Source: Gemmatimonadales bacterium (GTDB lineage: Bacteria > Gemmatimonadota > Gemmatimonadetes > Gemmatimonadales > GWC2-71-9). From it: a stretch of 64,000 nt of DNA. Positions 527 through 60,279 of this stretch are shown piece after piece. The stretch is from positions 1,816-65,815 of the forward strand of contig DATMDQ010000085.1 of the NCBI GenBank assembly GCA_035557715.1, in the 5' to 3' direction. The position numbers and the translations under genes are program-made. Numbering within the stretch: position 1 is the first letter of the stretch; every line of letters begins with the position of its first letter. The notes beneath the pieces are model-generated. The model was not told the origin of the DNA. It saw only the letters and a program-made list of their open reading frames with translations, and made no database searches.

Positions 527-610
527 GGTAAGGCGTGAGCGGTAAGCGGTAAGCAGTAAGCGGTAGCGTGGGGGGGGGAAACGGCCCGCTCACCGCTAAC
601 CGTTCACCCC
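527..610. repeat. Tandem-heptamer palindrome (G-arm GGTAAGG CGTGAGC GGTAAGC GGTAAGC AGTAAGC GGTAGCG, G9 run, C-arm CCCGCTCACCGCTAACCGTTCACCCC)
   Basis: Read directly from the sequence. It lies between the glcF stop (596) and the HAD start (510). The C-arm supplies the last glcF codons (GVNG*). Confidence 0.85.
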
Positions 611-1933
611 ATCATAGTACCCCGCCTCATCGTACGACAGATCCAGCAGCTCCACGGGATGGGCCACACCGATGGGCAGGCGGGCGGCCCGAAGGCCGGC
701 TCCGATCTGCATCAGGCAGCCCGGGTTGCCGCTGACGATCAGGTCGGGCCGCGGCCTGGCTTCGGCCACGCTCGCGATCTTGCTGTCGAGCACCGCGCGG
801 GCCATGGCGGGGCGCAGGACGGAGTAGATCCCCGCGCTACCGCAGCAGCGGTCAGAGCCCGGCAGGACCCGAAGGCGCAAACCGGGCACCGCCTCCAGCA
901 TGGCGAGCGGGGCCTGGTGGACGCGCTGGGCATGCTGGAGGTGACAGGGCGCGTCGTACGCCACGTCCAGGCGGATCGGTGCGCCCGGCCTGGGGCCTCG
1001 TTCGGCCAGCAGCTCGGAAACGTCTCGGACCCGGGCCGCCACCATAGCGGCTGCGCTCGACTCCAGCAGGCGGCCGTAGTCCTTGAGCAGGGCTCCGCAA
1101 CCGGCGCTGTTCACCACGATGAAATCCGCTTTCCCTTGCAGGGCGGCGACATTGGCCGCCGCCAGGGCCCGAGCGCCATCCACGTCTCCCGCATGCTCGT
1201 GCAGCGCCCCGCAACAGGCCTGGCCCTTCGCCTCAATGACCCGATATCCGTTTACCCGCAGGGTTCGCTTGGTAGCTTCGTGCACGTGGCTGAAGAGCGC
1301 ATTCATCACGCAGCCGCGGAATAGAATGACGGTCGGTGCGCCGGCGGGACCGGGGGACAGCGGAACAGCAACAGCACCGGGAAGGGACTCATGAGTCGAG
1401 CCCGGCTGCCCCGCCGACCCGCTGTCCCGCTGGCCTCCGTCCTTCCTCTTCTCAGCCTGCTCGGTCATTTCCGACGAGGATGCCAGCATACCCATTCCAA
1501 ACCCGAGCCGCCCCTTCCCGGCCAGGAGGCTGGGCAGTCCGGTGGACCGAAGCGTCCGGGCCAAGGCGAACAACGGTCGCCAGATCTTGCCATACCGAAA
1601 GACACCCAGGACCAGCCGAGCCAAGGAGGAGAGACCCCGAGCGTGGTAGATCTGTTCCCGGGCGGCCTCCAGGCCGCGTCCATACCCCACGCCGGAGGGA
1701 CAGACCGGCTCGCATCCGCGGCAGCCAAGACATCCCTCGAGGTGTTCCAACAACCCCGGATCGTGGGGACTCATCTCCCCTCGCTCCAGGGCTCGCATCA
1801 GCACGATACGGCCTCGCGGGCTGTCGCCCTCGTCCCCAGTGACCAGGTATGTGGGACAAGCAGGAAGGCAGAAGCCGCAGTGCACGCAGGGATCCAGGGC
1901 GGAGTAACCGTTGGCCGCTTCCACCCTACGCAT
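596..1933 (-). CDS. glcF: Glycolate oxidase iron-sulfur subunit
   Basis: ORF 596..1957. It has two ferredoxin-type Cys clusters (CVHCGFCLPACPTY, CLGCRGCEPVCPSG) followed by a Cys-rich CCG-type C-terminal half. Start moved to ATG 1933 (MRRVEAANG), 2 nt after the glcE stop. There is a low-complexity Ser/Gly/Pro linker mid-protein. Confidence 0.9.
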   Translation of the reverse strand: MRRVEAANGYSALDPCVHCGFCLPACPTYLVTGDEGDSPRGRIVLMRALERGEMSPHDPGLLEHLEGCLGCRGCEPVCPSGVGYGRGLEAAREQIYHARGLSSLARLVLGVFRYGKIWRPLFALARTLRSTGLPSLLAGKGRLGFGMGMLASSSEMTEQAEKRKDGGQRDSGSAGQPGSTHESLPGAVAVPLSPGPAGAPTVILFRGCVMNALFSHVHEATKRTLRVNGYRVIEAKGQACCGALHEHAGDVDGARALAAANVAALQGKADFIVVNSAGCGALLKDYGRLLESSAAAMVAARVRDVSELLAERGPRPGAPIRLDVAYDAPCHLQHAQRVHQAPLAMLEAVPGLRLRVLPGSDRCCGSAGIYSVLRPAMARAVLDSKIASVAEARPRPDLIVSGNPGCLMQIGAGLRAARLPIGVAHPVELLDLSYDEAGYYDGVNG

Positions 1934-3143
1934 TATCCACCCCTTCCAATGCCACACTCAGGCATTGCCCGGGGTCGAAAGTGTCGCGGAGCCGGCCGAC
2001 GATCTGGCCAACACCTTCCCGGTAGGCACCGAAGTGCCCGATTGCCCGTCGGACGGCCCAGGGCGCTCGCTCGAGGGTCATGGGGATCTCGCGGGCGGCC
2101 GCGGCCCGGCGCAGCGCGCGGAGTCGCTCGAGCGGCGCATCACCCGTCCAACGGATCATTCCCAGTCCCGCACCGGCCGACACCAATCCCTCGTCGAGGT
2201 CATGGGACAGGAGGTCAATCGCTTCGTCGATGCCGTCGCCCAGCACCCCGAGCCGCAGCGTTATGGGGCCGCCAAGACTGCCACGCGCGGCCACGCTCCA
2301 GAACGCCGCGGTGCGATCGGCCGGGAGCGGCTGCCAGAGCTGCCCGCCGACCGAGCCGAGCCGACGCACATCGGCCTGGACCGCGGCGTCAGTCCCGACG
2401 AAGCGGGCGGCAAGCACCCAATCCGCCTCGGCAGCAAGGGCAGGTGAGATCAGCTCCAGGGCGCTGGGCAACAGGTGGGCCGACATCAGCTCGCGGGCCG
2501 CGGCGGTGAGCGCGTCCCGAGCGCCCCGCGCTACCAGGGTGACATCGGCCCGGGGCAGGGCGCGGAGCCGCAGATGGACGTCAGCAATAATTCCGAACCC
2601 GCCGAAGCCTCCCACCTGGAGCTTAGTGAGATCGTAGCCGGCGACGTTCTTCACCACCCGGCCGCCGGCGTTGACCAGCCTCCCGTCTCCGGTGGCGACG
2701 GTGCAGCCGAGCACGTGGTCTCGCACTGGTCCGTATCCGTGACGGAGAGGACCGGCCGTGGCGGTGGCAATCACCGAGCCGATGCTCCGGTCAGGCCGGC
2801 CCGGCGGGTCGATGGCGAGCCACATGCCATAATCGGCCAGCCGCCGCCGCAGCGCCTCGAGGGACGCGCCTCCCTGCACCGTGGCGACCAGGTCGGCCGG
2901 GCTCACCGACACGATCTGCTCCAGGGCGCGGGTGCGCACTACCAGGTCCGCGGGCGCATCCGGAGCCAGCCACGTCCCCCGACCTTCGACCCGGATCTTC
3001 CAGCTTTCCTCGTGTGCCAGACGGCATACCAGGGAGAGCGCGTCGTTCGAGTCCGGGCTGGCCCGTGCCACCCCGTTGGCATCCCGGTCGACGCCGGCAG
3101 TGCCGAGCAGCGCACGAAGCCGGGCATAGATGGCGTCATTCAT
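1926..3143 (-). CDS. glcE: Glycolate oxidase FAD-binding subunit
   Basis: ORF 1926..3170. FAD-binding PCMH-type domain, positioned between glcD and glcF. Starting at ATG 3143 (MNDAIYARL) gives an ATGA overlap with the glcD stop. Confidence 0.85.
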   Translation of the reverse strand: MNDAIYARLRALLGTAGVDRDANGVARASPDSNDALSLVCRLAHEESWKIRVEGRGTWLAPDAPADLVVRTRALEQIVSVSPADLVATVQGGASLEALRRRLADYGMWLAIDPPGRPDRSIGSVIATATAGPLRHGYGPVRDHVLGCTVATGDGRLVNAGGRVVKNVAGYDLTKLQVGGFGGFGIIADVHLRLRALPRADVTLVARGARDALTAAARELMSAHLLPSALELISPALAAEADWVLAARFVGTDAAVQADVRRLGSVGGQLWQPLPADRTAAFWSVAARGSLGGPITLRLGVLGDGIDEAIDLLSHDLDEGLVSAGAGLGMIRWTGDAPLERLRALRRAAAAREIPMTLERAPWAVRRAIGHFGAYREGVGQIVGRLRDTFDPGQCLSVALEGVDNA

Positions 3144-4561: not shown

Positions 4562-5226
4562 TGGTCTGCGACGATATCGGGGGCCGCGCCGCCTTTTCCA
4601 TTGGTGTGAGCGCGCTGGTGCACCTTGAGCGCGCTCTCGACCGCACTGGTGAGCACCGGGAGCAGTAACAGCAGCGCCTTAAATCGCCGGCTGGTCGATC
4701 GTTCCGCCAGCAGCCGGTGCTTAACGCCGGGGTCGCACTCAATCGCCCCGGCCACCTGAAAAGAGAGACTCAAGGGGTCCTCGGGCAGCGCCGGCTCTTC
4801 CGGCTCCACATCGTTCAGCTGGCGCAATCCGGAGAAGTAGCGAGCGAAGAGCGCCCGTAAAATACTCGTCTCTTCCGCGGCGGGCTCGGTGTTCGGATCA
4901 TCGTCGAACGTCTGGACCTGGGCCACGAGATAGGGGAGAGACTCCTCGAGGAGCCGGCCCAGCACGAACCGTGAGCCGCCTACCACTACGATGTTTGACC
5001 GGCCATCCGGAAGCTCCTGATTTACCCGTACCTCCGCGACGCAGCCAACCGTTCCCGGCTCGGGGACGTCGCGCGCCGGCGGAACCGGCGTGATTCCAAA
5101 ACGCCGGTCCGCAGCGAGACAGTCCGCCAGCATTCGCTTGTACCGCGGCTCGAAGATGTGCAGCGGAAGCGGCGTACCAGGGAACAGCACCGCTGCGAGT
5201 GGAAAGATGGGAAGGCGGGAGGGCAT
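4558..5226 (-). CDS. LON substrate-binding (N-terminal) domain protein
   Basis: LPIFPLAAVLFPGTPLPLHIFEPRYKRM is the signature of stand-alone Lon N-domain proteins. Start moved to ATG 5226 (aa 19 of ORF 4558..5280), so the upstream repeat is non-coding. Confidence 0.85.
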   Translation of the reverse strand: MPSRLPIFPLAAVLFPGTPLPLHIFEPRYKRMLADCLAADRRFGITPVPPARDVPEPGTVGCVAEVRVNQELPDGRSNIVVVGGSRFVLGRLLEESLPYLVAQVQTFDDDPNTEPAAEETSILRALFARYFSGLRQLNDVEPEEPALPEDPLSLSFQVAGAIECDPGVKHRLLAERSTSRRFKALLLLLPVLTSAVESALKVHQRAHTNGKGGAAPDIVADQ

Positions 5227-5234
5227 TTTGGAAA

Positions 5235-5323
5235 GGTAAGCGGTGGGCGGTGAGAAGTGTGCGGGGAGCCCCGATGCCATCCGGAACTCCCCGCTTACCG
5301 CTTTACTGTTTACCGCTCACGCC
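5235..5323. repeat. Tandem-heptamer palindrome (G-arm GGTAAGC GGTGGGC GGTGAGA AGTGTGC GGGGAG; C-arm CTCCCCGCTTACCGCTTTACTGTTTACCGCTCACGCC)
   Basis: Core stem GCGGGGAG (5261-5268) pairs with CTCCCCGC (5287-5294) around an 18-nt loop. It fills the spacer between the sigma-factor stop (5326) and the Lon-domain gene start (5226). Confidence 0.85.
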
Positions 5324-5325: not shown

Positions 5326-6219
5326 TTAGGCCGCTCCCCAGAACCCCCTGAGCGACCGCACGTCCGCGGAATCGCGCAGCTTCTCGAACGCCCGCTCCCG
5401 GATCTGCCGGATGCGCTCCCGGGTGACCCCGAGGAGGGCGCCGATCTTTTCCAGAGTCAGGGCCTCGGATCCTTCCTCCAGACCGTAATAGAGGGAAAGA
5501 ATCTTGCGCTCGCGGGGGGTGAGGTGCCGTTGGAAGATCCGGTCGATAAACTCGCGCTGGAGCCGGACGTCCGTCATCTCCTCGATCTCGATACCGCCGG
5601 TGCCGGCCACTCGCTCGCCGAAGGTGCTGGCCCCCCGGTCCTGCCGCTCCACCGGCGCGTCGAGCGAGACCTCGGTGGAGGTCATCCGATGAGCCGAGCG
5701 GATGTTGTCCACCGTATCGTTGAGCGCGATGGCAATCTCGGCGTCGGTCGGCTCCCGCCCAAGCTCCTGGGCCAGAAAGCTCTTGGCGCGCGACATGCGG
5801 ACCAGCGCGGAATTCTGGTTGAGCGGGATTCGAACGCTGCGAGTCTGCTCTGCCAGGGCCTTCAACACCGCCTGGCGAACCCACCAGACCGCATACGAGA
5901 TGAACTTTACCCCGTGATCGGGATCGAACTTCTTGACCGCCTTAAGGAGACCCTCGTTGCCGATGGCCACCAGCTCGGACAAGTCGAGCCCGTGTCCCTG
6001 GTACTTCTTCACGTACGAGATCACGAACCGCAGGTTGGCGGTGACCAGCCGCTCGGCCGCTACCTCATCGCCTGCCAGCGCACATCTGGCCAGACGTTTC
6101 TCCTCGTCGGGATCGGAGATCATCGGGAGCTTCTGGATATCGAGCAGGTATTGATCGAACGCGCCGGAAGGAGTGGAGCGGGCAAACGGCCGGGCTTTCC
6201 CGGTACGGACGACGGTCAT
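5326..6219 (-). CDS. RNA polymerase sigma factor, sigma-70 family (RpoD-like, short form without region 1.1)
   Basis: Recognisable motifs are NLRFVISYVKKY, FISYAVWWVRQAVLKAL (region 2.3/2.4), RIPLNQ, and the region 4.2 HTH TLEKIGALLGVTRERIRQIRERA. ATG 6219 is preferred over TTG 6225. Confidence 0.9.
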   Translation of the reverse strand: MTVVRTGKARPFARSTPSGAFDQYLLDIQKLPMISDPDEEKRLARCALAGDEVAAERLVTANLRFVISYVKKYQGHGLDLSELVAIGNEGLLKAVKKFDPDHGVKFISYAVWWVRQAVLKALAEQTRSVRIPLNQNSALVRMSRAKSFLAQELGREPTDAEIAIALNDTVDNIRSAHRMTSTEVSLDAPVERQDRGASTFGERVAGTGGIEIEEMTDVRLQREFIDRIFQRHLTPRERKILSLYYGLEEGSEALTLEKIGALLGVTRERIRQIRERAFEKLRDSADVRSLRGFWGAA

Positions 6220-6292
6220 AGACAACCCCGGCAGAGTTGAAATGCGCTGCGATTATGGCTGCGGTGACCAGACTATTCGGAGAGGATGAGCC

Positions 6293-9272: not shown

Positions 9273-9330
9273 TTTGGGGGTGAGCGACCAGCGGTTAGCT
9301 ATTAGCTTTTACCCGACAGCAGGCCCCAAA
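9273..9330. repeat. Degenerate heptamer array (GGTGAGC GACCAGC GGTTAGC TATTAGC TTTTACC) enclosed by a TTTGGGG/CCCCAAA stem
   Basis: Read directly from the divergent spacer between the lipoprotein gene and the FNR gene. The 7-nt periodicity of nnnnAGC is visible. It has no full inverted array. Confidence 0.5.
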
Positions 9331-10376: not shown

Positions 10377-10391
10377 CGGGAAGGACGGGGG

Positions 10392-11674: not shown

Positions 11675-11697
11675 GTTTACCGCTCTCACCTCACCCC
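11675..11697. repeat. Solitary C-arm fragment (GTTTACCGCTCTCACCTCACCCC)
   Basis: The reverse complement reads GGTGAGG TGAGAGC GGTAAAC. It overlaps the dacB stop, and no partner G-arm was seen. Confidence 0.5.
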
Positions 11698-13251
11698 TTT
11701 TCCCATCTCCACCACAACACTGTCGATCACTCCCAGAATTGCCCGGCCTGGCTGGACGTGGTGGTTAGCCTGCACCGAGAAGGTGAGAAATCTTCCGCGG
11801 GCCAGCTCGATATATCCCGAGAGGGTGTTCACCCGGGAGATGCTTCCTGTCTTTCCCCGTACTCGTCCAGCGAGGGGCGTCCCCACGAAGCGGGTGCGGA
11901 GCGAGCCGGTAACGCCCGCCTGGGGAAGCCCGGACGCAAAAGTGGCGTAGCGCGGGTGGCCACGGATGAAGCGGAGTATCTGGGTGAACGCTACCGGGCT
12001 CAGCAGATTGGTGCTCGAGAGACCGGAGCCATCGCTCAGGGAGATCTGGGTCGAATCAATTCGGACCGAATCGATCAGAAAGCGCCGCTCCACTTCGAGG
12101 CCTTCCGGCCATGAGCCGCCTCTCCCGAACTGCCGGCCCAGCTGCTTCAGCAACATTTCCGCGAACCAGTTCTGACTGGTGTTGAGGATGGGAAAGATCC
12201 AGTCCCGGAGTGGGCGGGAGGAGACCTCCGCCAACGGCGCGGTTGCCCGCATGCCGGCGTACAGGGTGGAGTCAGTGGTAGACCGGGTAGTGCCTGCAAC
12301 CGAGATGCCTGCATCGGTCAGTGCCTGACGCAGGGCTCGCGCGGCGTACAGATTCGGGTCCGGCAACGCGAATGACTCGATGCGCCTCGGGTTGTCGAGG
12401 GCCACGGTGCCTTCGGCCCAGATTTGAAGCGTGCCGGGATGGCGGAAGAAGCGATCCCCGATGTCCGACTCCCCGCCGGGCGGCACCGTGACCGTGCGGT
12501 TCTCGAAGCTGATGTCGCCCAGGTCCGGACTCATCGAGATAACGGCCGGTGTGCCCGGCGCCGGCCCCGGCTGCCAGGTGAAATCGACGCTGTTATCGTG
12601 GAAGCCGAGTCCCGAGACTGGTGCCGCGTACCACCAGTTGAGATCGAACTGTTCCCAATTCGGGTGGACCAGTGTGGGCTCGAAGTAGCTGCCGTCGCCC
12701 ACCACATCTCCAGCGATCAGCTGTACCCCCAGGCTTCGGAGCGAATCGGCCAGCTGGCGCAGCCGGGCGAACGGATCGGTGTCGCACACGCCGGCCAGGG
12801 TGGAGTCGGTGGCGTAGCAGCGTTGATCCATGGTAGGATCGCCTCGGCCGTAGAGCAGCAGATCCCCCACGAGGACGCCGCCTACGATCGGCCCGCCGTA
12901 GACGCTGGTCTTCACGCGCCAGTCGGGGGGGAGAAGCGCCGAGGCCACGGCGCTGACGACCAGCTTGGTGTTGCTGGCGGGAATGAAGAGACGATCGGCG
13001 TTCCGGCCATAAACCAGCCGCCCATTCTGGTCCACCATTGCCACGCCCCAGAGCTGCCGGTTGAACGGTGGACGATCCAGTCGAGCGTCGAGGCGCTTGG
13101 ACAGGGACTGTGCGGGAAGGACGGGAATGACGGGAAGGACGGGAAGGATCAAGAGAGTAAGCAGGGGGCGCAAGATTCCTGGGATCAACCAAGAGCGGGT
13201 AATCCTCACCCTCCCGACCTTCCCGCCTTTCCCGTCCTTGCCCTCAATCAT
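11686..13251 (-). CDS. dacB: D-alanyl-D-alanine carboxypeptidase/endopeptidase (PBP4, peptidase S13)
   Basis: Active-site SxxK (IPASNTKL) and an overall PBP4-like sequence. The start is uncertain: ATG 13251, or TTG 13188, which gives a cleaner signal peptide (IPGILRPLLTLLILPVLPVIPVLPA/QS). The N-terminus is encoded by a 9-mer repeat. Confidence 0.85.
   Translation of the reverse strand: MIEGKDGKGGKVGRVRITRSWLIPGILRPLLTLLILPVLPVIPVLPAQSLSKRLDARLDRPPFNRQLWGVAMVDQNGRLVYGRNADRLFIPASNTKLVVSAVASALLPPDWRVKTSVYGGPIVGGVLVGDLLLYGRGDPTMDQRCYATDSTLAGVCDTDPFARLRQLADSLRSLGVQLIAGDVVGDGSYFEPTLVHPNWEQFDLNWWYAAPVSGLGFHDNSVDFTWQPGPAPGTPAVISMSPDLGDISFENRTVTVPPGGESDIGDRFFRHPGTLQIWAEGTVALDNPRRIESFALPDPNLYAARALRQALTDAGISVAGTTRSTTDSTLYAGMRATAPLAEVSSRPLRDWIFPILNTSQNWFAEMLLKQLGRQFGRGGSWPEGLEVERRFLIDSVRIDSTQISLSDGSGLSSTNLLSPVAFTQILRFIRGHPRYATFASGLPQAGVTGSLRTRFVGTPLAGRVRGKTGSISRVNTLSGYIELARGRFLTFSVQANHHVQPGRAILGVIDSVVVEMGKGVR
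13114..13243. repeat. Tandem 9-mer palindrome (GGGAAGGAC GGGAATGAC GGGAAGGAC GGGAAGGAT, 54-nt spacer, inverted array CCTCACCCTCCCGACCTTCCCGCCTTTCCCGTCCTTGCCC)
   Basis: Read directly from the sequence. It lies at the dppB-stop / dacB-start junction and overlaps the dacB 5' coding region. Confidence 0.9.
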
Positions 13252-15704: not shown

Positions 15705-15796
15705 GGACAGCGGGGCAGGGGGGCAGGGGGCAGGAAAAAGCTCACCGAGCACGCTGAACCGGAGCGACTGCCCGCGGTCCCGCGGTCCCGCTGCCC
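15705..15796. repeat. G-run palindrome (GGACAGCGGGGCAGGGGGGCAGGGGGCAGG ... GACTGCCCGCGGTCCCGCGGTCCCGCTGCCC)
   Basis: Outer pairing is ACAGCGGG with CCCGCTG, and inner pairing is GGGCAG with CTGCCC. It lies in the divergent spacer, 12 nt from the SBP start codon. Confidence 0.8.
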
Positions 15797-36302: not shown

Positions 36303-36310
36303 GCTGGAAA

Positions 36311-36349
36311 GATAAGCGTAAGCGGTGAGCGGCAAGCGCTCACGCTTCG
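36311..36349. repeat. Short heptamer hairpin (GATAAGC GTAAGC GGTGAGC GGCAAGC / GCTCACGCTTCG)
   Basis: Stem GTGAGCG/CGCTCAC with loop GCAAG, extended by AAGC/GCTT. It lies between the thiS stop and the thiG start, 8 nt from the thiG ATG. Confidence 0.8.
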
Positions 36350-42857: not shown

Positions 42858-42864
42858 GCTAGAA

Positions 42865-43002
42865 GGTAAGGGAAGGACGGGAAGGACGGGAAGGACGGAA
42901 GGGGCGGGGAAAAAATACCGATGTCATCCTGAGCGGAGCGAAGGATCTAGCCGGCGAGTGCGTTCCTTCCCATCCTTCCCCTCCTTCCCCATCCTTCCCG
43001 TC
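42865..43002. repeat. Tandem 9-mer palindrome with a distinct central core (GGTAAG GGGAAGGAC x3 GGAAGGGGCGGGG ... GTCATCCTGAGCGGAGCGAAGGATC ... TTCCTTCCCATCCTTCCCCTCCTTCCCCATCCTTCCCGTC)
   Basis: Read directly from the sequence. It fills the 143-nt spacer between the small zinc-ribbon ORF and the ruvB start, with the G-arm beginning 7 nt from the ruvB ATG. The unit is the same as at 13114-13149. Confidence 0.9.
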
Positions 43003-45633: not shown

Positions 45634-45636
45634 GCG

Positions 45637-46512: not shown

Positions 46513-46520
46513 GGCAAAGT

Positions 46521-46614
46521 ATAAGCGGGGAAGCGGGGAAGCAGGGAAGCGGGGAAGGGGAAGCGGTGACCGTTTCTACTTTCCTTCCCCCCGCCTCCCC
46601 GCTTCCCCGCTTAT
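46521..46614. repeat. Tandem 8-mer palindrome (AAGCGGGG units) with a perfect 19-bp outer stem
   Basis: ATAAGCGGGGAAGCGGGGA (46521-46539) pairs with TCCCCGCTTCCCCGCTTAT (46596-46614). The G-arm begins 8 nt from the dnaB-like ATG. The C-arm encodes the last residues of the upstream ORF. Confidence 0.92.
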
Positions 46615-48002: not shown

Positions 48003-48016
48003 GGGGTGAAACTACA

Positions 48017-48062
48017 GCGGTAAGCAGTAGGCGGTAAGCTGCTTACCGCTCACCGCTCACGC
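48017..48062. repeat. Compact heptamer palindrome (GGTAAGC AGTAGGC GGTAAGC t GCTTACC GCTCACC GCTCACG)
   Basis: Read directly from the sequence. It lies in the divergent spacer, about 15 nt from the GT9 start and about 17 nt from the response-regulator start. Confidence 0.88.
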
Positions 48063-48078
48063 GGGTTAGGTTTCGTGC

Positions 48079-49646: not shown

Positions 49647-51479
49647 GTGCGCGCCGAGCTCCGGCTCCTGCGGCTGGTCACCCCTTACCGGGCCCTGCTC
49701 GGGTTCGGACTCGTGACCACCATGCTGGCCTCCCTGCTCGATGGCTTTACCCTGGTGATGCTGGTCCCGCTGCTGAAGCACCTGTTCGGAACCGCCGGAA
49801 GCCTGCGGGCCGGGTCCACCCAGCTGGAGGCCCTGATCGACCGGCTGGTCGAACCGCTCATAGCTGGTCTCTCACCGGGTCAGGCGGCCGGCCGCCTGGT
49901 GGTGCTTCTGGTCATTGGCCTCGTGCTAAAAAACGTCATGAGCTATGCATCCACTCAGCTCTCGGTGCGCACCCAGGAGGGGCTGGTGCGCGACCTTCGC
50001 ACCCGGCTGTTCGGCCACCTACTCACGCTGGACCTCGGCTTCTTCCAGCGCACCCGGGCCGGTCAGCTGATCTCGGGGATAATCACCGAGGTGGACCAGA
50101 CCAAGACGGTCATCTCGGCCTCGCTGCTCTCGTTCTTCCAGAATCTCGTCGTGGTAGCCGTGACGCTGTTCATCCTGAGCCAGATCTCGCTCCGGCTGAC
50201 CCTGCTCACGCTGGCGTTCGTTCCCTTTTTGCTGCTGGGACTTCAGTCGCTCCTGCGGCGGCTGCGGGGCCACGCGCGCGCCCGGGCGCACGAGCGGGGA
50301 GAGATCACGGCAACCGTGAGCGAGCGACTCGGCGCCATCCGGCTGATCCGGTCCTACGGGGAGGAGGCCCGAGAGACGTCCCATTTCGGGGCTCAGGCGG
50401 ATCGCTATCGAAAGCGGGTGATTCGCACCCAGCGATTTTCCTCGCTCACCAGTCCGGTCACCGAGGTGTTCTCCGGGTTTCTCGTAATCCTGATCATCTG
50501 GGCCGGCACCAAACCCGGGCTGGTCGGCCTAACAGCGCCGCTTGCACCCGAGACCATCATCGTATTCCTCCTGGCCGCGCTGAAGCTCACCTCGCCACTC
50601 AAGACCATCGCCTCGTTTCCCGCCACCATGGCGGTGACCCTGGCGAGCGCCGAGCGGGTCTTCGATTTCCTCGATGAGCCGTCCACCGAGGTGGACCGCC
50701 CTGGGGATGAGATCGCCAAATTCGACCGTGATATTGCCTTCGACCGGGTCTCCTTCCGGTATGGAGACGGCGATCTGGTCCTGCGGGACGTCTCTTTCAA
50801 GCTGGGAAAGGGTCGGATCGTCGCCCTGGTCGGCCCTTCCGGAGCAGGGAAGACCACGATTGCTGATCTGGTTCCGCGTTTCCACGATCCCACCATCGGA
50901 CAGATTCTGATGGACGGGGTGCCCCTTACCCGCATCGGCCGGCGTTCACTGCGGGCGTTGATGGGCGTCGTGAGTCAGGACACCGTCCTGCTGAACGACA
51001 CGGTCCGAGGCAACATCGCCTACGGCTCGCCGGGGGCTACGCCGGAGATGGTCGAGGCCGCCGCTCAGGCGGCCAACGCTGCCGGGTTCGTCGCCGAGCT
51101 TCCTCAGGGCTACGACACCATGCTGGGCGAGCGGGGGACCCGGCTCTCGGGTGGACAGCGACAGCGGATCGCTATCGCCCGTGCGCTACTGCGCGATCCA
51201 CCGATTCTGATTCTGGACGAGGCCACCAGCGCGCTCGACACCGAATCCGAACGGCTGGTGCAGCAGGCCATCGAGCGGCTCATGCGGGAGCGCACGGTGC
51301 TGGTGATTGCCCACCGTCTGGCGACGGTGCGCGATGCTGACGAGATCGTGGTCCTGGATGGGGGACGTGTAGTGCAGCGCGGCAGCCACGAGGAGCTGCT
51401 TCGTGCCGGGGGACTCTATCGCCGGCTATACGATCTTCAGTTCCGCGGCGAAGAACCGGCGGTCACGGCGGAGCTGTAG
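49647..51479 (+). CDS. ABC exporter, fused permease-ATPase (MsbA-like lipid A/lipid flippase)
   Basis: Six-TM domain, then an NBD with Walker A GPSGAGKTT, signature LSGGQRQR and Walker B ILILDEATS. GTG start 2 nt after the regulator stop. Confidence 0.88.
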   Translation: MRAELRLLRLVTPYRALLGFGLVTTMLASLLDGFTLVMLVPLLKHLFGTAGSLRAGSTQLEALIDRLVEPLIAGLSPGQAAGRLVVLLVIGLVLKNVMSYASTQLSVRTQEGLVRDLRTRLFGHLLTLDLGFFQRTRAGQLISGIITEVDQTKTVISASLLSFFQNLVVVAVTLFILSQISLRLTLLTLAFVPFLLLGLQSLLRRLRGHARARAHERGEITATVSERLGAIRLIRSYGEEARETSHFGAQADRYRKRVIRTQRFSSLTSPVTEVFSGFLVILIIWAGTKPGLVGLTAPLAPETIIVFLLAALKLTSPLKTIASFPATMAVTLASAERVFDFLDEPSTEVDRPGDEIAKFDRDIAFDRVSFRYGDGDLVLRDVSFKLGKGRIVALVGPSGAGKTTIADLVPRFHDPTIGQILMDGVPLTRIGRRSLRALMGVVSQDTVLLNDTVRGNIAYGSPGATPEMVEAAAQAANAAGFVAELPQGYDTMLGERGTRLSGGQRQRIAIARALLRDPPILILDEATSALDTESERLVQQAIERLMRERTVLVIAHRLATVRDADEIVVLDGGRVVQRGSHEELLRAGGLYRRLYDLQFRGEEPAVTAEL

Positions 51480-53555: not shown

Positions 53556-54482
53556 TTGCTCCAGTCCCGGAGATCAGGGCAAATTCTCCCATCCTCGAAT
53601 CCGCGCTCCCGGAGTAATCCCGTGGTCCAGGTGTCGGGCTTCACCATCGTCCGTAACGCCGTCAAGCTCGATTTCCCTCTCGAAGCCAGTATCCGTTCGA
53701 TCCTCCCGATCTGCGATGAAGTCGTGGTCAACGTAGGCCGGTCGGATGACAACACCCTCGAGGTGGTGCGTTCGATCGGCGACCCGAAGATTCGGATCCT
53801 CGAGACCGAATGGGACATGACGAGACGGAACTGGGTATTCGGGGACGAAACTCTGAAGGCGATGCGGGCCTGCCGGTTTCCCTGGGGGGTCTACATCCAG
53901 GCCGATGAGGTCCTGCATGAGGATGGCGCGCGTGAGCTGTACGACGCCATTCAGCGGAACGATGCCGATCCTCGGGTCGAGGGCCTCCTGGTCCGGTACC
54001 TCCACTTCTACGGGGGCCTGGACACGATCGCCACCCATCGCCGCTGGTATCGTCGGGAGGTCCGGGTGGTCAGACTGGACCCGGCACTCGATATCCGACC
54101 GTACCAGGGAGCGCAAGGTTTCCGGGTTGGGCCAGAGCTCAGGAAGATCCGTAGTCGCCTCACGGGTGCAGTGATGTACCACTACGGTTGGGGGCGTCCC
54201 GCCAGGGCCATCCACGCCAAGCGAGAGGTCACCCGCGGATTCTTCCCCGACAAGCAGCCCGAAGGCACCCCGCTCCTGCCTTGGATACCGCTCCTCCGCC
54301 CCTTTCACGGTGCCCACCCGGCGGTGGCACAGGAGTGGGTGGAGCAGCGACGGAACGATCCCGAGCGTCGCGTCGCTCCACGCCGCCTTCGGCTGCTGCA
54401 CCTTCGGTTCTACCTCTCGCATGTAATCGAACGCCTCACCGGAGTGCGCGTCTTCGAGTTCCGCAATTACAAGCGGGTTTGA
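53556..54482 (+). CDS. Glycosyltransferase-like protein (GT2-related, uncharacterised subfamily)
   Basis: GFTIVRNAVKLDFPLEASIRSILPICDEVVVNVGRSDDNTLEVV resembles an uncharacterised sugar-transferase family seen in polysaccharide loci. The start is uncertain (possibly a GTG near VQVSGFT). Confidence 0.55.
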   Translation: MLQSRRSGQILPSSNPRSRSNPVVQVSGFTIVRNAVKLDFPLEASIRSILPICDEVVVNVGRSDDNTLEVVRSIGDPKIRILETEWDMTRRNWVFGDETLKAMRACRFPWGVYIQADEVLHEDGARELYDAIQRNDADPRVEGLLVRYLHFYGGLDTIATHRRWYRREVRVVRLDPALDIRPYQGAQGFRVGPELRKIRSRLTGAVMYHYGWGRPARAIHAKREVTRGFFPDKQPEGTPLLPWIPLLRPFHGAHPAVAQEWVEQRRNDPERRVAPRRLRLLHLRFYLSHVIERLTGVRVFEFRNYKRV

Positions 54483-54489
54483 GGTCTGG

Positions 54490-55443
54490 TTAAAGTGGGT
54501 AGGCTTGCCGCCTGAGCAGCAGCTCCAGCCGATGCGCGTAGGTGTGAGCGGCGTGGACATGAGCCAGACCTGCGGCGGCAATACTGGCCCTTCCGGAGTG
54601 GTCAGCCAGATAGTGCCGAACCAGATCGACCGCCTCCGCATTTGAGTCATACCAGACGCAATGCTCACCGCCTTGGGCCAGACGGCTAACCTCGGGCACC
54701 TGGGGACCGAGGTAGAAGCCGCCGCATCCCAGGACTTTCCAGAGCCGATTCGAGGTGCACGCCCGGGCGCTCCACTGCTGTTCGGTGGCATTTGCTCCCA
54801 GTGAGATCGAGGCGCCGCGCACGATCTGGGAGAAGCGACGTCCGCGAACCGCTCCGCCCACCACTGGAAGGCTCGTGCCGCCGTCCCAGCCAGGCCCGCG
54901 GATGTGAAGGTTGCAGGTCTCTGCGACTGCCCGGAGCAGCTCGTGCCGGTAGCGATACTGACCCGATCCGATGAAGGATGCATCACACCGGTAGCGACCT
55001 GGGACGTAGCTCGCGGGTACGTCGAAAGTGGGGTCACAGCCCTGCGGGAGAAACTTGACTGAAGGGAGCCCCGCGCCGGTATAGAGCTCGATCTGAGACG
55101 GGCAGGTGACGAACACGGATTCGGCGGCCCGGCCGAGTCGAAGGATGCGCTCGGCGGGTCGGTCGACCAGGTCAAAGAACCAGAGGACCGACTCGCGCCC
55201 ACGGGTTACGGCCGCCAGGGTCTGGTCATCGAGCGGGGCCGCGTAACGGGTGAGCAGGATCGTGTCGGGTGCGAACCGATCGATGCGCCACCGGATAAAT
55301 CTCCCGGCAAACCTTCGGAGTAGCCGGGAAGTACCGGGCACGTCGATTAGAAGACAGCGGTGCCCCAGGCTCCGCGCGCCTCGGGCGATGGCCGCCTCGG
55401 TCCGGTGGGCTCCCCCTGCGCCGAAGATCACAATCCGTTTCAT
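54490..55443 (-). CDS. CgeB-family / DUF3880-type glycosyltransferase-like protein
   Basis: MKRIVIFGAGG...TSNRLWKVLGCGGFYL...VWYDSNAEAVDLVRHYL is the pattern typical of this family. Confidence 0.6.
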   Translation of the reverse strand: MKRIVIFGAGGAHRTEAAIARGARSLGHRCLLIDVPGTSRLLRRFAGRFIRWRIDRFAPDTILLTRYAAPLDDQTLAAVTRGRESVLWFFDLVDRPAERILRLGRAAESVFVTCPSQIELYTGAGLPSVKFLPQGCDPTFDVPASYVPGRYRCDASFIGSGQYRYRHELLRAVAETCNLHIRGPGWDGGTSLPVVGGAVRGRRFSQIVRGASISLGANATEQQWSARACTSNRLWKVLGCGGFYLGPQVPEVSRLAQGGEHCVWYDSNAEAVDLVRHYLADHSGRASIAAAGLAHVHAAHTYAHRLELLLRRQAYPL

Positions 55444-57524: not shown

Positions 57525-58174
57525 ACATCGAAATAGCTCCCCAGCCGTCGACCGGATCGGACTACGACCAGCGGTACCGGGAGTGGCTCGATCACCAGGG
57601 CCCGCGCGGGCTCGACCTGGACTGGCGCATGCGACACCTGCTCTGGCGCCAACGAGTACTGCTGCGGCGATTTCCCCCCGAGCGGAAACGGGTTCTCGAT
57701 TTCGGGTGCATGGACGGCATCTTCACCTTGCGACTCCAGCAACTCGGAGCGGAAGCGGTGGGCTACGACATCTCCACCGCGGCTATCAGCCAGGCCGAGA
57801 AATTCCGTGGTGCGGCGCCGCATCCCGCCTTCACGACCGTTCCGCCGGGCCCCGGCCAGTTCGATATGGTCTACTGCAACGAAGTGATCGAGCACATCCG
57901 GGACGATGCGGCGTTCGTAGGGCAGCTGGTTGAATTCCTTGCTCCTGGCGGCGTCCTGGTAGGGACTACTCCGGTGGGAAAACACTTCGGGGATCCGGAC
58001 CGCAAGCACCAGTACGACCGTAACACCCTGGCGCGCGCACTCTCGAGTTGGGGCCGCATCCGAATCCGCCGATATTACCGTACACCGCTTCGCAACCTGC
58101 TGCCGTTTCGACAGGAGGGTGCCGCCGTGTTCATCTTTGAGGTCAGGCCGCAGAGTCTTCGGGACGCACGCTGA
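57521..58174 (+). CDS. Class I SAM-dependent methyltransferase
   Basis: VLDFGCMDGIFT (motif I) and MVYCNEVIEHI. 4-nt overlap with the upstream GT4 gene. Confidence 0.85.
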   Translation: MNIEIAPQPSTGSDYDQRYREWLDHQGPRGLDLDWRMRHLLWRQRVLLRRFPPERKRVLDFGCMDGIFTLRLQQLGAEAVGYDISTAAISQAEKFRGAAPHPAFTTVPPGPGQFDMVYCNEVIEHIRDDAAFVGQLVEFLAPGGVLVGTTPVGKHFGDPDRKHQYDRNTLARALSSWGRIRIRRYYRTPLRNLLPFRQEGAAVFIFEVRPQSLRDAR

Positions 58175-59258: not shown

Positions 59259-59276
59259 GAATCGTGCGCTCGGCGC

Positions 59277-59314
59277 GGTGAGAGCCGACGCCAGAAGGAT
59301 GTGCCCGGCTCACC
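59277..59314. repeat. Single-unit hairpin (GGTGAGAGCCG ... CGGCTCACC)
   Basis: Read directly from the divergent spacer between the patatin gene and dppC-like gene. It is a minimal version of the heptamer palindromes. Confidence 0.55.
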
Positions 59315-59347
59315 CTCGGAACGGGTAACCCAGGACACGGGAGCAGG

Positions 59348-60193
59348 ATGCCACAGAGTGTGCTAGGGGAGCGGCTGCGGCGGGATCGATTCTTTCAGCT
59401 GGGGCTCTGCTTCGTCTCGGTAGTGGTGATTGCCGCGGTGTTCGCCCCCTGGCTAGCGCCCCACAACCCTATCACGGGCGACCTCAGGAACGCCTACCTG
59501 GTCGAGCCGGGGTCGCGATTCCTCCTGGGGACCGATACCCAGGGGCGCGACGTCCTCAGCCGGGTGCTCTACGGGGCCCGCCTGTCCCTTTCCGTCGGCA
59601 TCATTTCCCAGTCGGTGTCGGTGACCCTCGGCGTGCTGCTTGGCCTGTTGGCCGGCTACTACGGCCGTTGGGTCGATGCCCTGGTGATGCGTCTGGCCGA
59701 CATCACCCTCGCGTTCCCCACCCTTCTCCTGCTCATCGCGGTAGCCGCGGCGGTCAAGCCCTCGCTGCCTGTAGTCTTCGTCGTCATCGGGGTCGTTGGC
59801 TGGGCCGGCATGGCCCGACTGGTTCGAAGCCAGGTTCTGGTCCTCCGCCACTCCGAGTTCGTCCTGGCCGCCCGTGCGCTGGGGGCTCGTGACCGCCGGA
59901 TCCTGCTGCGGCATCTCCTCCCCAATGTGCGCACCCAGGTCATCATTGCGGCTACCCTGGGCATAGCGGGCGCTATCATGGCCGAAGCCGCGCTCTCCTT
60001 CGTGGGACTGGGGGCGCAGCCGCCCACCCCAAGTTGGGGGGCCATGGTGGCCGATGGCCGGGACCTGCTGCGCGTCGCCCCCTGGATCTCGTTCGCTCCC
60101 GGCCTCGCCATCGGTGCGGCGGTGCTCGGCTTCAACCTGGTGGGCGACGCGCTTCGTGAGGCGTACGATCCCAAGCTACGAAGTGAGAGGTGA
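59348..60193 (+). CDS. Peptide/nickel ABC transporter permease (DppC/OppC-like)
   Basis: N-terminal OppC-type segment and a BPD permease body (LGAQPPTPSWGAMV). It is isolated from the dppB-like and SBP genes about 44 kb away. Confidence 0.88.
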   Translation: MPQSVLGERLRRDRFFQLGLCFVSVVVIAAVFAPWLAPHNPITGDLRNAYLVEPGSRFLLGTDTQGRDVLSRVLYGARLSLSVGIISQSVSVTLGVLLGLLAGYYGRWVDALVMRLADITLAFPTLLLLIAVAAAVKPSLPVVFVVIGVVGWAGMARLVRSQVLVLRHSEFVLAARALGARDRRILLRHLLPNVRTQVIIAATLGIAGAIMAEAALSFVGLGAQPPTPSWGAMVADGRDLLRVAPWISFAPGLAIGAAVLGFNLVGDALREAYDPKLRSER

Positions 60194-60279
60194 GAGGTGA
60201 GAAGCGAGAAGGGAAATCCAGGGGAGGGGGTTGCGGTGAAGGGGAGTTCCCTCTCACCGCTTACTTCTCACCTCTCACC
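60182..60279. repeat. Tandem-heptamer palindrome (AGTGAGA GGTGAGA GGTGAGA AGCGAGA ... CCCTCTCACCGCTTACTTCTCACCTCTCACC) with a perfect 16-bp outer stem
   Basis: GGTGAGAGGTGAGAAG (60189-60204) pairs with CTTCTCACCTCTCACC (60264-60279). It spans the dppC-like stop (60191-60193) and both candidate GTG starts of the next gene. Confidence 0.92.

What the first reader, a model, noticed from the sequence alone, without database searches (positions are those of the whole stretch)
527..60279. Recurrent G-arm/C-arm tandem-oligomer palindromes placed just upstream of start codons, with locus-specific but arm-matched units
The same architecture recurs at 9 junctions: 527-610, 5235-5323, 13114-13243, 15705-15796, 36311-36349, 42865-43002, 46521-46614, 48017-48062 and 60182-60279. 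Weaker or partial forms occur at 59277-59314, 9273-9330, 11675-11697 and 10377-10391.

Each element has 3-6 head-to-tail copies of a 7-9 nt G/purine-rich unit, a 1-60 nt spacer, then 3-5 copies of the reverse complement. The unit differs between loci: GGTAAGC/GGTGAGC, GGTGAGA, AAGCGGGG, GGGAAGGAC or GGGGCAG. Both arms of any one locus use the same variant. What is conserved is therefore the architecture and arm complementarity rather than a sequence, which is not what a simple REP or MITE copy family looks like.

The G-rich array is always 5' of the C-rich array, never the reverse. All full elements sit at co-directional or divergent junctions. The near edge lies 7-17 nt from a start codon for the HAD, Lon-domain, SBP, thiG, ruvB, dnaB-like, GT9 and porX-like genes. 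None of the seven convergent junctions carries a full element, so these do not behave like terminators.

In the mRNA of the downstream gene, the C-rich arm occupies the place where a Shine-Dalgarno sequence would be. Several G-arm units (GAGGTGA, AAGGA) resemble SD sequences.
Basis: partly seen in the sequence, partly recalled or inferred. Interest (0 to 1): 0.75.

Follow-up and report, generated by a model that had tools for sequence, protein, structure and literature searches.

The report
Inverted short-repeat hairpins at gene boundaries
These are real hairpin-forming DNA elements, each built from about four copies of a 7-9 base G-rich unit followed by the mirror-image C-rich copies, that crowd gene boundaries in Gemmatimonadales soil bacteria.

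Summary
The architecture is real. Eight period ≥7 arrays occur in the window against none in 30 shuffles, and all nine elements fold as long hairpins. The window is a Gemmatimonadales genome.

In 160 related loci the rule that the G-arm lies 5' of the C-arm holds 184:7. Units differ between species at the same junction, while the two arms stay matched. Units are shared more within a genome than within a junction.

- Start codons carry a TAnnTT box at -12, the signature of leaderless mRNAs. The C-arm is therefore promoter-upstream DNA, not a Shine-Dalgarno site.
- Full elements do occur at convergent junctions in relatives.
- Element 13114-13243 lies inside a coding sequence. Together with orthologous elements in at least 22 of 59 relatives, it is translated as part of a peptidase signal peptide.

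There are no shared loops and no target-site duplications, so these are not MITEs.

The best reading is inverted simple-sequence repeats that evolve in place by slippage plus template switching and are tolerated only at gene boundaries. The closest published analogue is the set of G-rich heptamer repeats of Xanthomonas and Nostoc, whose function is unresolved. The cause of the polarity remains unexplained.

The parts
527..610 (.). Element E1. G-arm about 527-565 (GGTAAGC units), C-arm about 585-610. Lies between the stop of the minus-strand gene 596-1957 (stop inside the C-arm) and the HAD gene start (ATG, reverse complement, 508-510). Near-match -10 box TATACC at 517-522.
   Evidence: -40 kcal/mol, z -3.7
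5235..5323 (.). Element E2. G-arm 5235-5255, C-arm 5291-5323. Lies between the stop of gene 5326-6252(-) and the Lon-domain gene start at 5224-5226. The -10 box TACCTT (minus strand) at 5233-5238 is fused to the outermost unit.
   Evidence: -46.6 kcal/mol, z -4.0
13113..13243 (-). Element E3 (GGGAAGGAC units). Lies inside the S13 peptidase ORF (ATG 13276-13278, overlapping the upstream permease stop). It is translated as the signal peptide MIEGKDGKGGKVGRVRITRSWLIPGILRPLLTLLILPVLPVIPVLPA|QS.
   Evidence: (-76.4 kcal/mol, z -7.4)
15705..15796 (.). Element E4. G-arm (GGGGCAG)n 15708-15734; C-arm (CCCGCGGT)n 15771-15796, so the arm units are only partly matched. Divergent junction between the SBP_bac_5 gene (ATG, reverse complement, about 15691-15693) and the Omp85/BamA-like gene (GTG 15901).
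   Evidence: -56.6 kcal/mol, z -4.2
36311..36349 (.). Element E5, short and weak. Lies upstream of thiG (start 36300-36302), with -10 box TATCTT (minus strand) at 36309-36314. The stop of gene 36358-36615(-) is 9 nt beyond the other arm.
   Evidence: -16.4 kcal/mol, z -2.7
42862..43002 (.). Element E6 (GGGAAGGAC units), with a REP-like 25-mer at 42923-42947 in its loop. Lies between the stop of a 58-aa zinc-ribbon gene (about 43001-43003) and the ruvB start at 42855-42857. The -10 box TACCTT (minus strand) is at 42864-42869.
   Evidence: (-73.5 kcal/mol, z -5.3)
46521..46614 (.). Element E7 (AAGCGGGG units). Lies upstream of the DnaB_C-like gene (start 46510-46512), with -10 box TATACT (minus strand) at 46518-46523. 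The upstream gene's C-terminal tail and stop lie in the purine arm and loop (gene call 46576-46983).
   Evidence: (-66.9 kcal/mol, z -7.5)
48017..48062 (.). Element E8 (GGTAAGC units, 1-nt loop). Lies between two back-to-back leaderless promoters: the GT9 gene (GTG, reverse complement, 48000-48002; box TAGTTT at 48009-48014) and the PorX-like gene (ATG 48079; box TAGGTT at 48067-48072).
   Evidence: -28.5 kcal/mol, z -4.5
60180..60279 (+). Element E9 (GGTGAGA units). The upstream gene's TGA (60191-60193) lies inside the G-arm. The downstream class-V aminotransferase has no canonical start after the C-arm; the in-frame GTGs are at 60197 and 60236.
   Evidence: -53.4 kcal/mol, z -4.2
11675..11697 (.). 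One-armed array (GTTTACC/GCTCTCACC on the + strand, so a purine arm on the minus strand directly after the S13 peptidase stop).
10377..10391 (.). 1.5 units of GGGAAGGAC that fill the 15-nt gap between convergent stop codons.
59277..59314 (.). Single-unit hairpin GGTGAGAGCCG...CGGCTCACC at a divergent junction.

Best explanation
The elements are inverted simple-sequence repeats. A tandem array of about four 7-9 nt purine/G-rich units is followed by a variable loop and then by the reverse-complement array. They arise, grow, shrink and change unit in place at gene boundaries of Gemmatimonadales genomes.

Shown:
- They are not transposed copies.
- The unit turns over quickly between species while the two arms stay complementary.
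- Whole elements come and go between close relatives, leaving nested remnants.
- They fill the tiny gaps between a stop codon and the next gene's signals.
- They overlap C-terminal codons.
- At one junction they sit inside a signal-peptide coding region with the frame kept open.

Inferred mechanism:
- Replication slippage changes copy number and homogenises units within an arm.
- Intramolecular template switching in quasipalindromes copies changes from one arm to the other.
- Fold-back synthesis can create the second arm.
- Central deletion removes the interior.
- Purifying selection in a compact genome leaves survivors only where extra sequence is harmless.

Where an element abuts a start codon, it lies upstream of the -10 box of a leaderless promoter. 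It is then spacer or -35-region DNA, not a 5' UTR. As RNA, the intergenic copies will form strong 3' hairpins. These probably stabilise or weakly end upstream transcripts as a side effect, but a dedicated function is not required by the data.

The near-universal 5' position of the G-arm is real and is not explained by this model alone. Two candidates are preferential fold-back of G-rich nascent 3' ends, and selection against exposing a C-rich (Rho-loading) RNA arm first.
For: Not mobile copies: loops of the window elements are unrelated and no direct repeats flank them.

Turnover with matched arms: at the PorX, ruvB and one convergent junction, an element's G-arm matches its own C-arm at Jaccard 0.47-0.52. 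It matches arms of other species at the same junction at only 0.05-0.11 (sequences). One transitional case, L005, has GGTAAGC in one arm and GTTCACT in the other.

Gain and loss:
- L002 has the two promoters abutting with no element, while L003, L004 and the window have different elements at exactly that point.
- L006 keeps only GACGGGtCCCGTC, the outermost pairs of the window's 138-nt element. L016 and L073 keep only a C-arm.

Tolerated inside ORFs: at least 22 of 59 S13-peptidase orthologues carry arrays between the conserved ATG and the cleavage site. The frame stays open and the N-terminus is extended from about 42-50 to as much as 114 residues.

Elements occur at all junction types: convergent 12/179, co-directional 28/634, divergent 4/157, plus the anchor junction.

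No strand-specific G.U tolerance: in co-directional junctions, 17 mismatches are wobble-compatible on the sense strand and 24 on the antisense strand.

Leaderless promoter signature.

The template-switch mechanism is established for quasipalindromes in E. coli (PMC7202029).
Against: - A 184:7 polarity bias is hard to obtain from slippage and template switching alone. It hints at a polar generating process or a strong functional constraint.
- Units are shared among different junctions of one genome (Jaccard 0.130 against 0.034, 0 of 2000 permutations). Purely local evolution does not predict this. It suggests spread between loci or a genome-specific trans factor.
- Elements persist at the same junctions across many species despite unit turnover. 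That could reflect selection for presence.
- At ruvB, presence of the element goes together with an independent -10 box. This is compatible with a transcription-unit boundary role.
- There are no expression data.
Confidence: 0.5

Rival explanations
1. Bidirectional transcription barriers that need no U-tract. RNA polymerase entering from either side transcribes the G-rich arm first and then the pyrimidine-rich arm. A long hairpin zips up against a weak r(pyrimidine):d(purine) hybrid. This ends or insulates transcription units whose downstream genes are leaderless.
For: - The hairpins are strong.
- Arms start within a few nt of stop codons or overlap them, and elements occur at convergent and co-directional junctions.
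- Canonical hairpin plus T-run terminators are not enriched: 7 found against 8.3 in shuffles.
- At ruvB, the element goes with an independent -10 box, whereas species without it show stop/start coupling.
- The polarity is the same from both directions, as a bidirectional device would need.
Against: - Elements inside the S13 signal-peptide coding region must be transcribed and translated through in dozens of species.
- E9 sits between an upstream stop and a gene with no promoter or start of its own.
- The best-sampled junction, GT9/PorX, is divergent, and nothing should read into it.
- There is no excess of sense-strand G.U mismatches.
- There is no U-tract.
Confidence: 0.2
2. DNA-level promoter-upstream elements. 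The C-rich non-template array and its G-rich partner form G-quadruplex, i-motif or cruciform structures, or supply -35-like hexamers in every register. Either would tune leaderless promoters.
For: - The outermost C-arm unit is fused to the -10 box. Units resemble the box region more than permuted pairs do (5.43 against 5.04 matches out of 10, p about 0.005).
- 36 of 220 leaderless promoters have an array across -45..-5.
- The promoter non-template strand is generally C-rich.
- G4 and i-motif formation was shown in vitro for the analogous Xanthomonas and Nostoc repeats (PMC4692102).
Against: - Elements also lie between convergent stops and inside ORFs.
- Only 8 of 73 G-arms have four or more GGG runs.
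- Unit sequences are too diverse to be one -35 motif.
- Outside the anchor junction, divergent junctions are the least occupied: 4/157.
Confidence: 0.1
3. The element is part of the downstream gene's 5' UTR, and its C-arm and G-arm occlude or mimic a Shine-Dalgarno site to control translation.
For: Some G-arm units (GAGGTGA) are SD-like. In E9, a GTG that lies 6 nt after such a unit is the only in-frame start.
Against: - A -10 box at -12 from the start codon leaves no 5' UTR at six starts of five window elements, with a near-match at a seventh start (coordinates in the parts list).
- There is no SD between the element and the start.
- Elements also occur at convergent junctions and inside ORFs.
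Confidence: 0.03
4. Mobile non-autonomous elements (MITE-like, or REP-like moved by a RAYT/IS200-type transposase), or arrays added at broken DNA ends and then joined head to head.
For: - Units are shared among loci of one genome.
- Presence and absence are precise between close species.
- A head-to-head join of two G-rich 3' extensions would give exactly the observed polarity and arbitrary 'filler' loops.
Against: - No TSDs, no shared loops and no conserved termini.
- Several unit families coexist within one genome.
- Nested remnants and gradual unit drift by single transitions fit local evolution.
- No candidate enzyme was examined.
Confidence: 0.1

Closest known systems
G-rich heptamer repeats of Xanthomonas (GGGAATC) and Nostoc (GGGGA(C/T)T), Rehm et al. 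2015, PMC4692102
   Same: - Intergenic tandem 7-mers with about four copies preferred.
- Same polarity rule: the G-rich strand is on the sense strand just after stops and on the antisense strand just before starts.
- 70-75 repeat sites per genome are paired 'in convergent orientation', that is, G-arm then C-arm.
- Extensive length and sequence variation between related species at the same junction.
- Some overlap stop codons.
- Function unresolved.
   Different: - Here there is no single consensus unit. There are many 7-, 8- and 9-mer units, genome-specific, with several families per genome.
- The inverted form dominates.
- Most units lack GGG runs, so G4 potential is a minority property.
- Different phylum, and a leaderless-promoter context.
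- Copies are translated within a signal peptide.
REP/BIME-type repetitive extragenic palindromes (e.g. GTAG/CGTC-tagged REPs, PMC3733652)
   Same: - Short imperfect palindromes packed into intergenic gaps near stop codons.
- Sometimes they supply the stop codon.
- They have hairpin potential in RNA and DNA.
   Different: - REPs are conserved-sequence families with a tetranucleotide tag and an associated transposase.
- The arms of these elements are tandem arrays of variable units.
- No conserved tag or conserved loop was found.
Rickettsia palindromic elements (RPE), which invade coding and non-coding regions (PMC1166351)
   Same: Palindromic repeats are tolerated in frame inside protein-coding genes, as with the S13 peptidase signal peptide here.
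   Different: RPEs are 100-150 bp conserved mobile families. Here the inserted sequence is a locally evolving simple-sequence palindrome, confined to the dispensable ends of proteins.
Upstream heptamer direct repeats (TAACTGA in Beggiatoaceae, cyanobacteria and Bacteroidetes; PMC4679880)
   Same: - Tandem heptamers lie immediately upstream of start codons of genes without an SD.
- Indels occur in 7-nt steps between strains.
   Different: - Those are one fixed unit and mostly direct, not inverted.
- They are proposed to be RNA-level binding sites in a 5' UTR.
- Here the arrays lie upstream of the -10 box.
Intrinsic (factor-independent) terminators
   Same: A stable GC-rich hairpin lies directly after stop codons, with symmetrical (bidirectional) potential.
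   Different: - There is no U-tract.
- The G-rich arm is 5', whereas classic E. coli terminators usually have the G-rich arm next to the U-tract (my own recollection, not tested here).
- Elements are present in divergent junctions and inside ORFs.

Membership tests
G-rich heptamer SSRs (Xanthomonas/Nostoc type, PMC4692102) | Tandem G-rich units of about 7 nt, about 4 copies, enriched in non-coding DNA | tested here: met
   Periods are 7 (42 elements), 8 (28) and 9 (3). Median is 4.0 copies per arm. G-arm composition is G 48%, A 29%. No such arrays appear in shuffles.
G-rich heptamer SSRs (Xanthomonas/Nostoc type, PMC4692102) | The 5' end of the G-rich strand abuts the neighbouring ORF (sense strand after a stop, antisense strand before a start), with frequent inverted pairs in convergent orientation | tested here: met
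   Partner side is 108:1 and 76:6. Unpaired arrays inspected by eye appear to follow the same gene-relative polarity; this was not counted.
G-rich heptamer SSRs (Xanthomonas/Nostoc type, PMC4692102) | Consensus unit GGGNATC with four G-tracts able to form a G-quadruplex | tested here: not met
   Units are diverse: GGTAAGC, GGTGAGA, AAGCGGGG, GGGAAGGAC, GGCGGTAG, GGACGGAC and others. Only 8 of 73 G-arms have four or more GGG runs.
REP / BIME | High-copy family with conserved sequence and a terminal GTAG/CGTC tag | tested here: not met
   Unit and loop sequences differ between loci. No conserved terminal tetranucleotide was seen.
REP / BIME | Association with a RAYT (Y1) transposase in the genome | not testable with these tools
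   Only 64 kb of this genome, plus fragments of 20 kb or less from relatives, were available.
MITE | Near-identical copies with terminal inverted repeats, flanked by target-site duplications | tested here: not met
   No direct repeats longer than 5 nt flank any of the nine elements. Loop similarity is at or near the shuffle level. Empty and filled orthologous sites show no duplication.
Intrinsic terminator | GC-rich hairpin followed by a U-tract | tested here: not met
   Hairpins are present but no T-run follows them. The hairpin+T-run scan is at shuffle level and reports no full element; its one overlapping hit is a stem in the loop of E7.
Intrinsic terminator | Located at ends of transcription units and never inside an essential transcript | tested here: not met
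   Elements lie inside the S13 peptidase ORF in at least 22 of 59 orthologues and in a divergent promoter gap.
5'-UTR translational control hairpin (SD occlusion) | The element is transcribed as part of the downstream gene's leader and overlaps its ribosome-binding site | tested here: not met
   TAnn[TC]T lies at -12 from the start codon (136 against 3-17 away from the peak), with a -35-like TTG 17 nt upstream. This implies a transcription start at the start codon. Direct 5'-end mapping was not possible.
Known RNA families (Rfam 15) | A match at gathering threshold | tested here: not met
   0 matches in the 64-kb window.

The most novel reading that the evidence does not exclude
A lineage-wide class of self-renewing simple-sequence palindromes with genome-specific unit 'dialects'. 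In this reading a polar process makes them, such as fold-back or end-extension synthesis from G-rich 3' ends, possibly with a dedicated factor. That would explain both the 184:7 polarity and the sharing of units between loci of one genome. The elements would then be recruited repeatedly as functional sequence: charged and hydrophobic halves of signal peptides, C-terminal tails, all-frame stop/restart modules such as (GGTGAGA)n, and spacer or -35 DNA for leaderless promoters.
Probability: 0.15. Interest if true: 0.8.

Novelty: new variant of a known kind. Interest (0 to 1): 0.55.

Why it matters
- These elements appear to be a large, unannotated component of Gemmatimonadales genomes, an abundant soil phylum. 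The window has about one per 7 kb, which would imply hundreds per genome.
- They affect gene calling. Start codons, C-terminal tails and signal peptides run through them.
- They show unusually clear concerted evolution of the two arms of a hairpin while the sequence itself is replaced.
- They extend the unexplained polarity rule seen for G-rich heptamer repeats in Xanthomonas and Nostoc to a third phylum and to arbitrary units. The rule is therefore about strand composition and gene boundaries, not about one motif.
- In-frame recruitment of a simple-sequence palindrome as a signal peptide is a neat case of non-coding repeat DNA becoming coding sequence.
- The accompanying evidence that these bacteria use leaderless mRNAs widely is useful for annotation and for promoter engineering.

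Tried and rejected
- Rfam scan and tRNA scan: nothing found.
- SD-occlusion model: rejected because the -10 box lies at -12.
- MITE or REP copy family: rejected.
- Strand-specific RNA selection, tested as G.U against A.C mismatches relative to transcription direction in co-directional junctions: no asymmetry, 17 against 24 with small numbers.
- General G-skew after stop codons as a background cause of the polarity: absent in junctions without arrays.
- Canonical terminators and canonical TTGACA/TATAAT promoters: not enriched.
- Open reading frame through E9 in four species as evidence of translation: judged not significant on its own, because C-arms lack stop codons in every frame.
- Unit derived from the -10 box: only a modest locus-specific similarity.
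- Stop-codon supply as the cause of polarity: about half of the units contain no T, and the exceptional GCTATCN family has the stop-bearing arm on the 3' side.
- Literature searches for Gemmatimonadetes/Gemmatimonas with leaderless, palindromic repeats or terminators: nothing specific found.

Full report

Yes. Reading the nine stated intervals shows, in each, a run of 7-9 nt G/purine-rich units, a spacer and a run of the reverse-complement units.
- TRF reports both arms as arrays.
- The repeat finder reports the arms as 80-92% complementary over 20-34 nt.
- A simple detector (period 5-11, at least 2.6 copies, at least 78% self-match) finds 10 arrays in the window. Eight have period >=7 and six have a reverse-complement partner within 170 nt. 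Thirty dinucleotide-preserving shuffles gave means of 0.27, 0 and 0.
- All nine fold into long hairpins, with MFE from -16 to -76 kcal/mol and z from -2.7 to -7.5. Element 36311-36349 is the weakest.
- There is no Rfam family and no tRNA in the window.

**2. Where does the window come from, and is the pattern general?**

A window protein is identical to one on an ENA soil metagenome contig. Eighty GTDB species representatives that carry the PorX-like gene at 82-98% identity are almost all labelled Gemmatimonadales, Gemmatimonadaceae or Gemmatimonadota.

In the window plus these loci (1.42 Mb) I found 209 arrays and 75 paired elements.
- G-rich arrays have their partner on the 3' side 58:1. C-rich arrays have it on the 5' side 50:0.
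- An independent set of 80 JGI metagenome loci, anchored on a different window gene, gives 37:3 and 39:3.
- The few exceptions are almost all one unit family, GCTATCN/NGATAGC.

Typical elements have period 7 (42 cases), 8 (28) or 9 (3). They have about 4.0 copies per arm and a median loop of 46 nt (range 7-132).

**3. What is next to them?**

Genes were called with a codon model trained on the window. The PorX-like gene carries Response_reg and PglZ domains.

The key point is the start-codon context.
- Across 1205 genes, TAnn[TC]T peaks at -12 from candidate starts, with 136 occurrences against 3-17 at positions away from the peak.
- Inside genes the motif (as TAnnTT) is about 0.0002 per position.
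- Aligned on this box, promoters without arrays show a weak TTG exactly 17 nt upstream and a C-rich non-template strand.

This is a sigma-70-type promoter whose transcription start coincides with the start codon, so the mRNAs are leaderless. No SD is present. Canonical TTGACA/TATAAT promoters and hairpin+T-run terminators are at shuffle level.

In the window the box is fused to the outermost C-arm unit at six starts:
- the Lon-domain gene: TACCTT, 5233-5238
- thiG: TATCTT, 36309-36314
- ruvB: TACCTT, 42864-42869
- the DnaB-like gene: TATACT, 46518-46523
- GT9: TAGTTT, 48009-48014
- PorX-like: TAGGTT, 48067-48072

[quoted passage not shown] It is not a place in the mRNA where an SD would be.

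**4. Junction types**

In the window, most elements lie between a stop and the next co-directional start. Two lie in divergent gaps. Window convergent genes overlap or are at most 15 nt apart, so the absence of elements there says little.

In relatives, full elements do sit between convergent stop codons, for example L026 14451-14555, L033 14413-14623, L042 14491-14561, L065 11036-11172 and L081 6637-6736.

Occupancy outside the anchor junction is:

| Junction type | Occupied / total |
|---|---|
| convergent | 12/179 |
| co-directional | 28/634 |
| divergent | 4/157 |
| anchored GT9/PorX divergent gap (strict criteria) | 16/64 |

. By eye the anchored gap is occupied in roughly half of the species.

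Arms usually start within a few nt of the stop codon or contain it. Around stops with arrays, the G-skew already begins about 30 nt inside the gene.

**5. How do they evolve?**

At the same orthologous junction the unit differs between species. The PorX junction, for example, carries GGTAAGC, GGTGAAC, GGTAAGA/GGTGAGC, GGCGGAGAG, GGACGGAC, GGAGAAA, GGGGAAA, GCGTGAA or GTGAAAA. Each element's arms nevertheless match.
- The 5-mer Jaccard similarity of a G-arm to its own C-arm is 0.47-0.52. Against arms of other species at the same junction it is 0.05-0.11. The first figure is inflated by the way elements were defined; the second is not.
- Neighbouring unit types differ by single transitions. One species is caught with discordant arms: L005 has GGTAAGC against GTTCACT.
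- Units are more alike between different junctions of one genome (Jaccard 0.130) than between genomes at one junction (0.049). Background is 0.034, and 0 of 2000 label permutations reach the observed value. 'Locus-specific' is therefore better described as 'genome-specific dialects with several families per genome'.

Whole elements appear and vanish between very close relatives.
- L002 (98% PorX identity) has the two -10 boxes separated by 5 nt and no element. L003, L004 and the window have different elements at exactly that point.
- At ruvB, species without an element have stop/start coupling (TGAacATG). Species with one mostly have an independent -10 box.
- L016 and L073 retain only a C-arm.
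- L006 retains GACGGGtCCCGTC, the outermost pairs of the window's 138-nt element.
- At the DnaB-like gene, the element sits between a stop codon and a pre-existing TATACT box. In element-free relatives these almost abut, as in TAGcTTATACT.

Loops of the window elements are unrelated, and there are no flanking direct repeats. These are not MITE or REP copies.

**6. Elements inside coding sequence**

The S13 peptidase (11686.., minus strand) would lack a signal peptide if it began at the first start downstream of element 13114-13243.

In 59 of the 70 metagenome orthologues examined, the gene begins at an ATG that overlaps the upstream permease stop (gcgtATGAyTrA; window ATG 13276-13278). The mature protein starts after A|Q(S/K)L.
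- Plain orthologues have an ordinary signal peptide, for example L096 MIRRILAVLSAVSVVSAPAVA|QKD.
- In at least 22 of 59, arrays lie between the ATG and the cleavage site with the frame open. They extend this N-terminal segment from about 42-50 to as much as 114 residues.
- The purine arm encodes a charged segment and the pyrimidine arm a hydrophobic one. Examples are the window (MIEGKDGKGGKVGRV...LLILPVLPVIPVLPA|QS), L088 ((DGK)n...(LPV)n) and L114 ((ERA)n...LSALSAVSALSA).

These copies must be transcribed and translated through.

A second window element, 60182-60279, contains the upstream gene's TGA. It is followed by an aminotransferase whose ancestral ATG (ATGA overlap in L050 and L051) is gone. 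The only in-frame starts are GTGs in the G-arm or loop, and the same is true in L004, L008 and L058. I leave this case open.

**7. Mechanism**

The SD-occlusion idea is not tenable (section 3).

An efficient-terminator role conflicts with section 6 and with the divergent PorX gap. A test for sense-strand G.U tolerance in co-directional junctions also found nothing (17 against 24).

A promoter-element role conflicts with the convergent and intragenic copies, although units do resemble the adjacent box slightly more than chance (5.43 against 5.04 of 10, p about 0.005).

The reading that fits everything shown has four parts:
- Inverted simple-sequence repeats evolve in place.
- Slippage drives changes within arms.
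- Quasipalindrome template switching acts between arms; this is an established mutational mechanism (PMC7202029).
- Central deletions occur, and selection filters the results so that they survive only at gene boundaries of a compact genome.

Two things are not explained by this alone: the strong polarity, and the sharing of units between loci of one genome. I regard these as the real open questions. Candidate explanations are fold-back priming by G-rich 3' ends, avoidance of an exposed C-rich Rho-loading arm, or an unknown polar process or factor. None could be tested here.

**8. Comparison with what is known**

The closest description is Rehm et al. 2015 (PMC4692102), on GGGAATC in Xanthomonas and GGGGA(C/T)T in Nostoc. 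Their features are:
- intergenic location, with about four units preferred;
- the G-strand on the sense side after stops and on the antisense side before starts;
- 70-75 repeat sites per genome found as convergent (inverted) pairs;
- strong length and sequence variation between related species;
- function unresolved.

The present elements share the architecture and the polarity rule. They differ in having no fixed unit, in mostly lacking G-quadruplex potential, in occurring in another phylum, and in being used as coding sequence.

REP/BIME elements, MITEs, intrinsic terminators and Rickettsia palindromic elements each share some behaviour. Each fails at least one defining feature (see the membership table).

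I found no paper describing these elements, or leaderless initiation, in Gemmatimonadota.

**9. Verdict**

This is a real, abundant and under-described repeat class. It is a new variant of a known but unexplained kind. Interest is moderate to good, because the polarity rule now spans three phyla and arbitrary units, and because of the in-frame recruitment into signal peptides.

Caveats:
- Gene calls are my own crude calls.
- Many loci are orthologous, so counts are not independent events.
- The strict detector misses degenerate elements (it finds 4 of the 9 in the window).
- There are no expression data.

Noticed in passing
window-wide and loci L002-L081; e.g. window 5233-5238, 36309-36314, 42864-42869, 48009-48014, 48067-48072: TAnn[TC]T lies exactly at -12 from start codons (136 against 3-17 away from the peak, over 1205 genes). 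A weak TTG lies 17 nt upstream, and there is no SD. This suggests that leaderless mRNAs are common in these Gemmatimonadales. I found no publication saying so.
   Followed up: partly
window 42923-42947; also L021 6748/6805, L027 6118/6174, L018 2676/2717, L037 2759/2800, L041 2962/3003 and others: A separate 25-nt REP-like motif, GTCATCCTGAGCGnAGCGAAGGATC, has 27 hits (up to 5 substitutions). It often occurs as inverted pairs 40-57 nt apart. Eleven of the 27 are nested in loops of the repeat palindromes. In some S13 orthologues it is even translated (VILSAAKDL).
   Followed up: partly
window 60191-60310; L004 about 21028-21160; L008; L058: The class-V aminotransferase downstream of element 60182-60279 has lost the ancestral ATG (ATGA overlap in L050 and L051). 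No canonical start follows the C-arm. (GGTGAGA)n offers GTG starts and TGA stops in all three frames, plus SD-like GAGGTGA.
   Followed up: partly
window 10374-10394, 45633-45637, 51463-51479, 54482-54490, 58143-58174, 62955-62958: Convergent gene pairs in the window overlap or are separated by at most 15 nt. This leaves no room for any terminator structure.
   Followed up: no
L153 7393-7515 and 10430-10537; L150 15992-16026; L026 728-786 and 1912-1999: One unit family (GCTATCN ... NGATAGC) shows the opposite arm order. It accounts for nearly all exceptions to the G-arm-first rule.
   Followed up: no
window 43001-43177 and orthologues: A conserved 58-aa zinc-ribbon-like gene (CxxC...CxxC, ending RPVRW) lies directly upstream of ruvB. 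In some species it is translationally coupled to ruvB. In others it is separated from ruvB by a repeat element plus a new -10 box.
   Followed up: no
L051 (JBLMWC010000041.1): The record is titled 'Bacillota bacterium' but carries a PorX-like locus 88% identical to this Gemmatimonadales window. This is probably a binning or labelling error.
   Followed up: no
L021-L040 ruvB-upstream regions, e.g. L038: A further unit family, CACGAAG(G)/CCTTCGTG, forms the same purine-arm then pyrimidine-arm palindromes upstream of ruvB in another subclade.
   Followed up: no
window 46576-46983 (minus): The 135-aa gene upstream of the DnaB-like gene appears to end inside element E7. Its last residues (…ISGEAGRRGEGK) are encoded by the purine arm, and its stop codon lies in the loop.
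   Followed up: no
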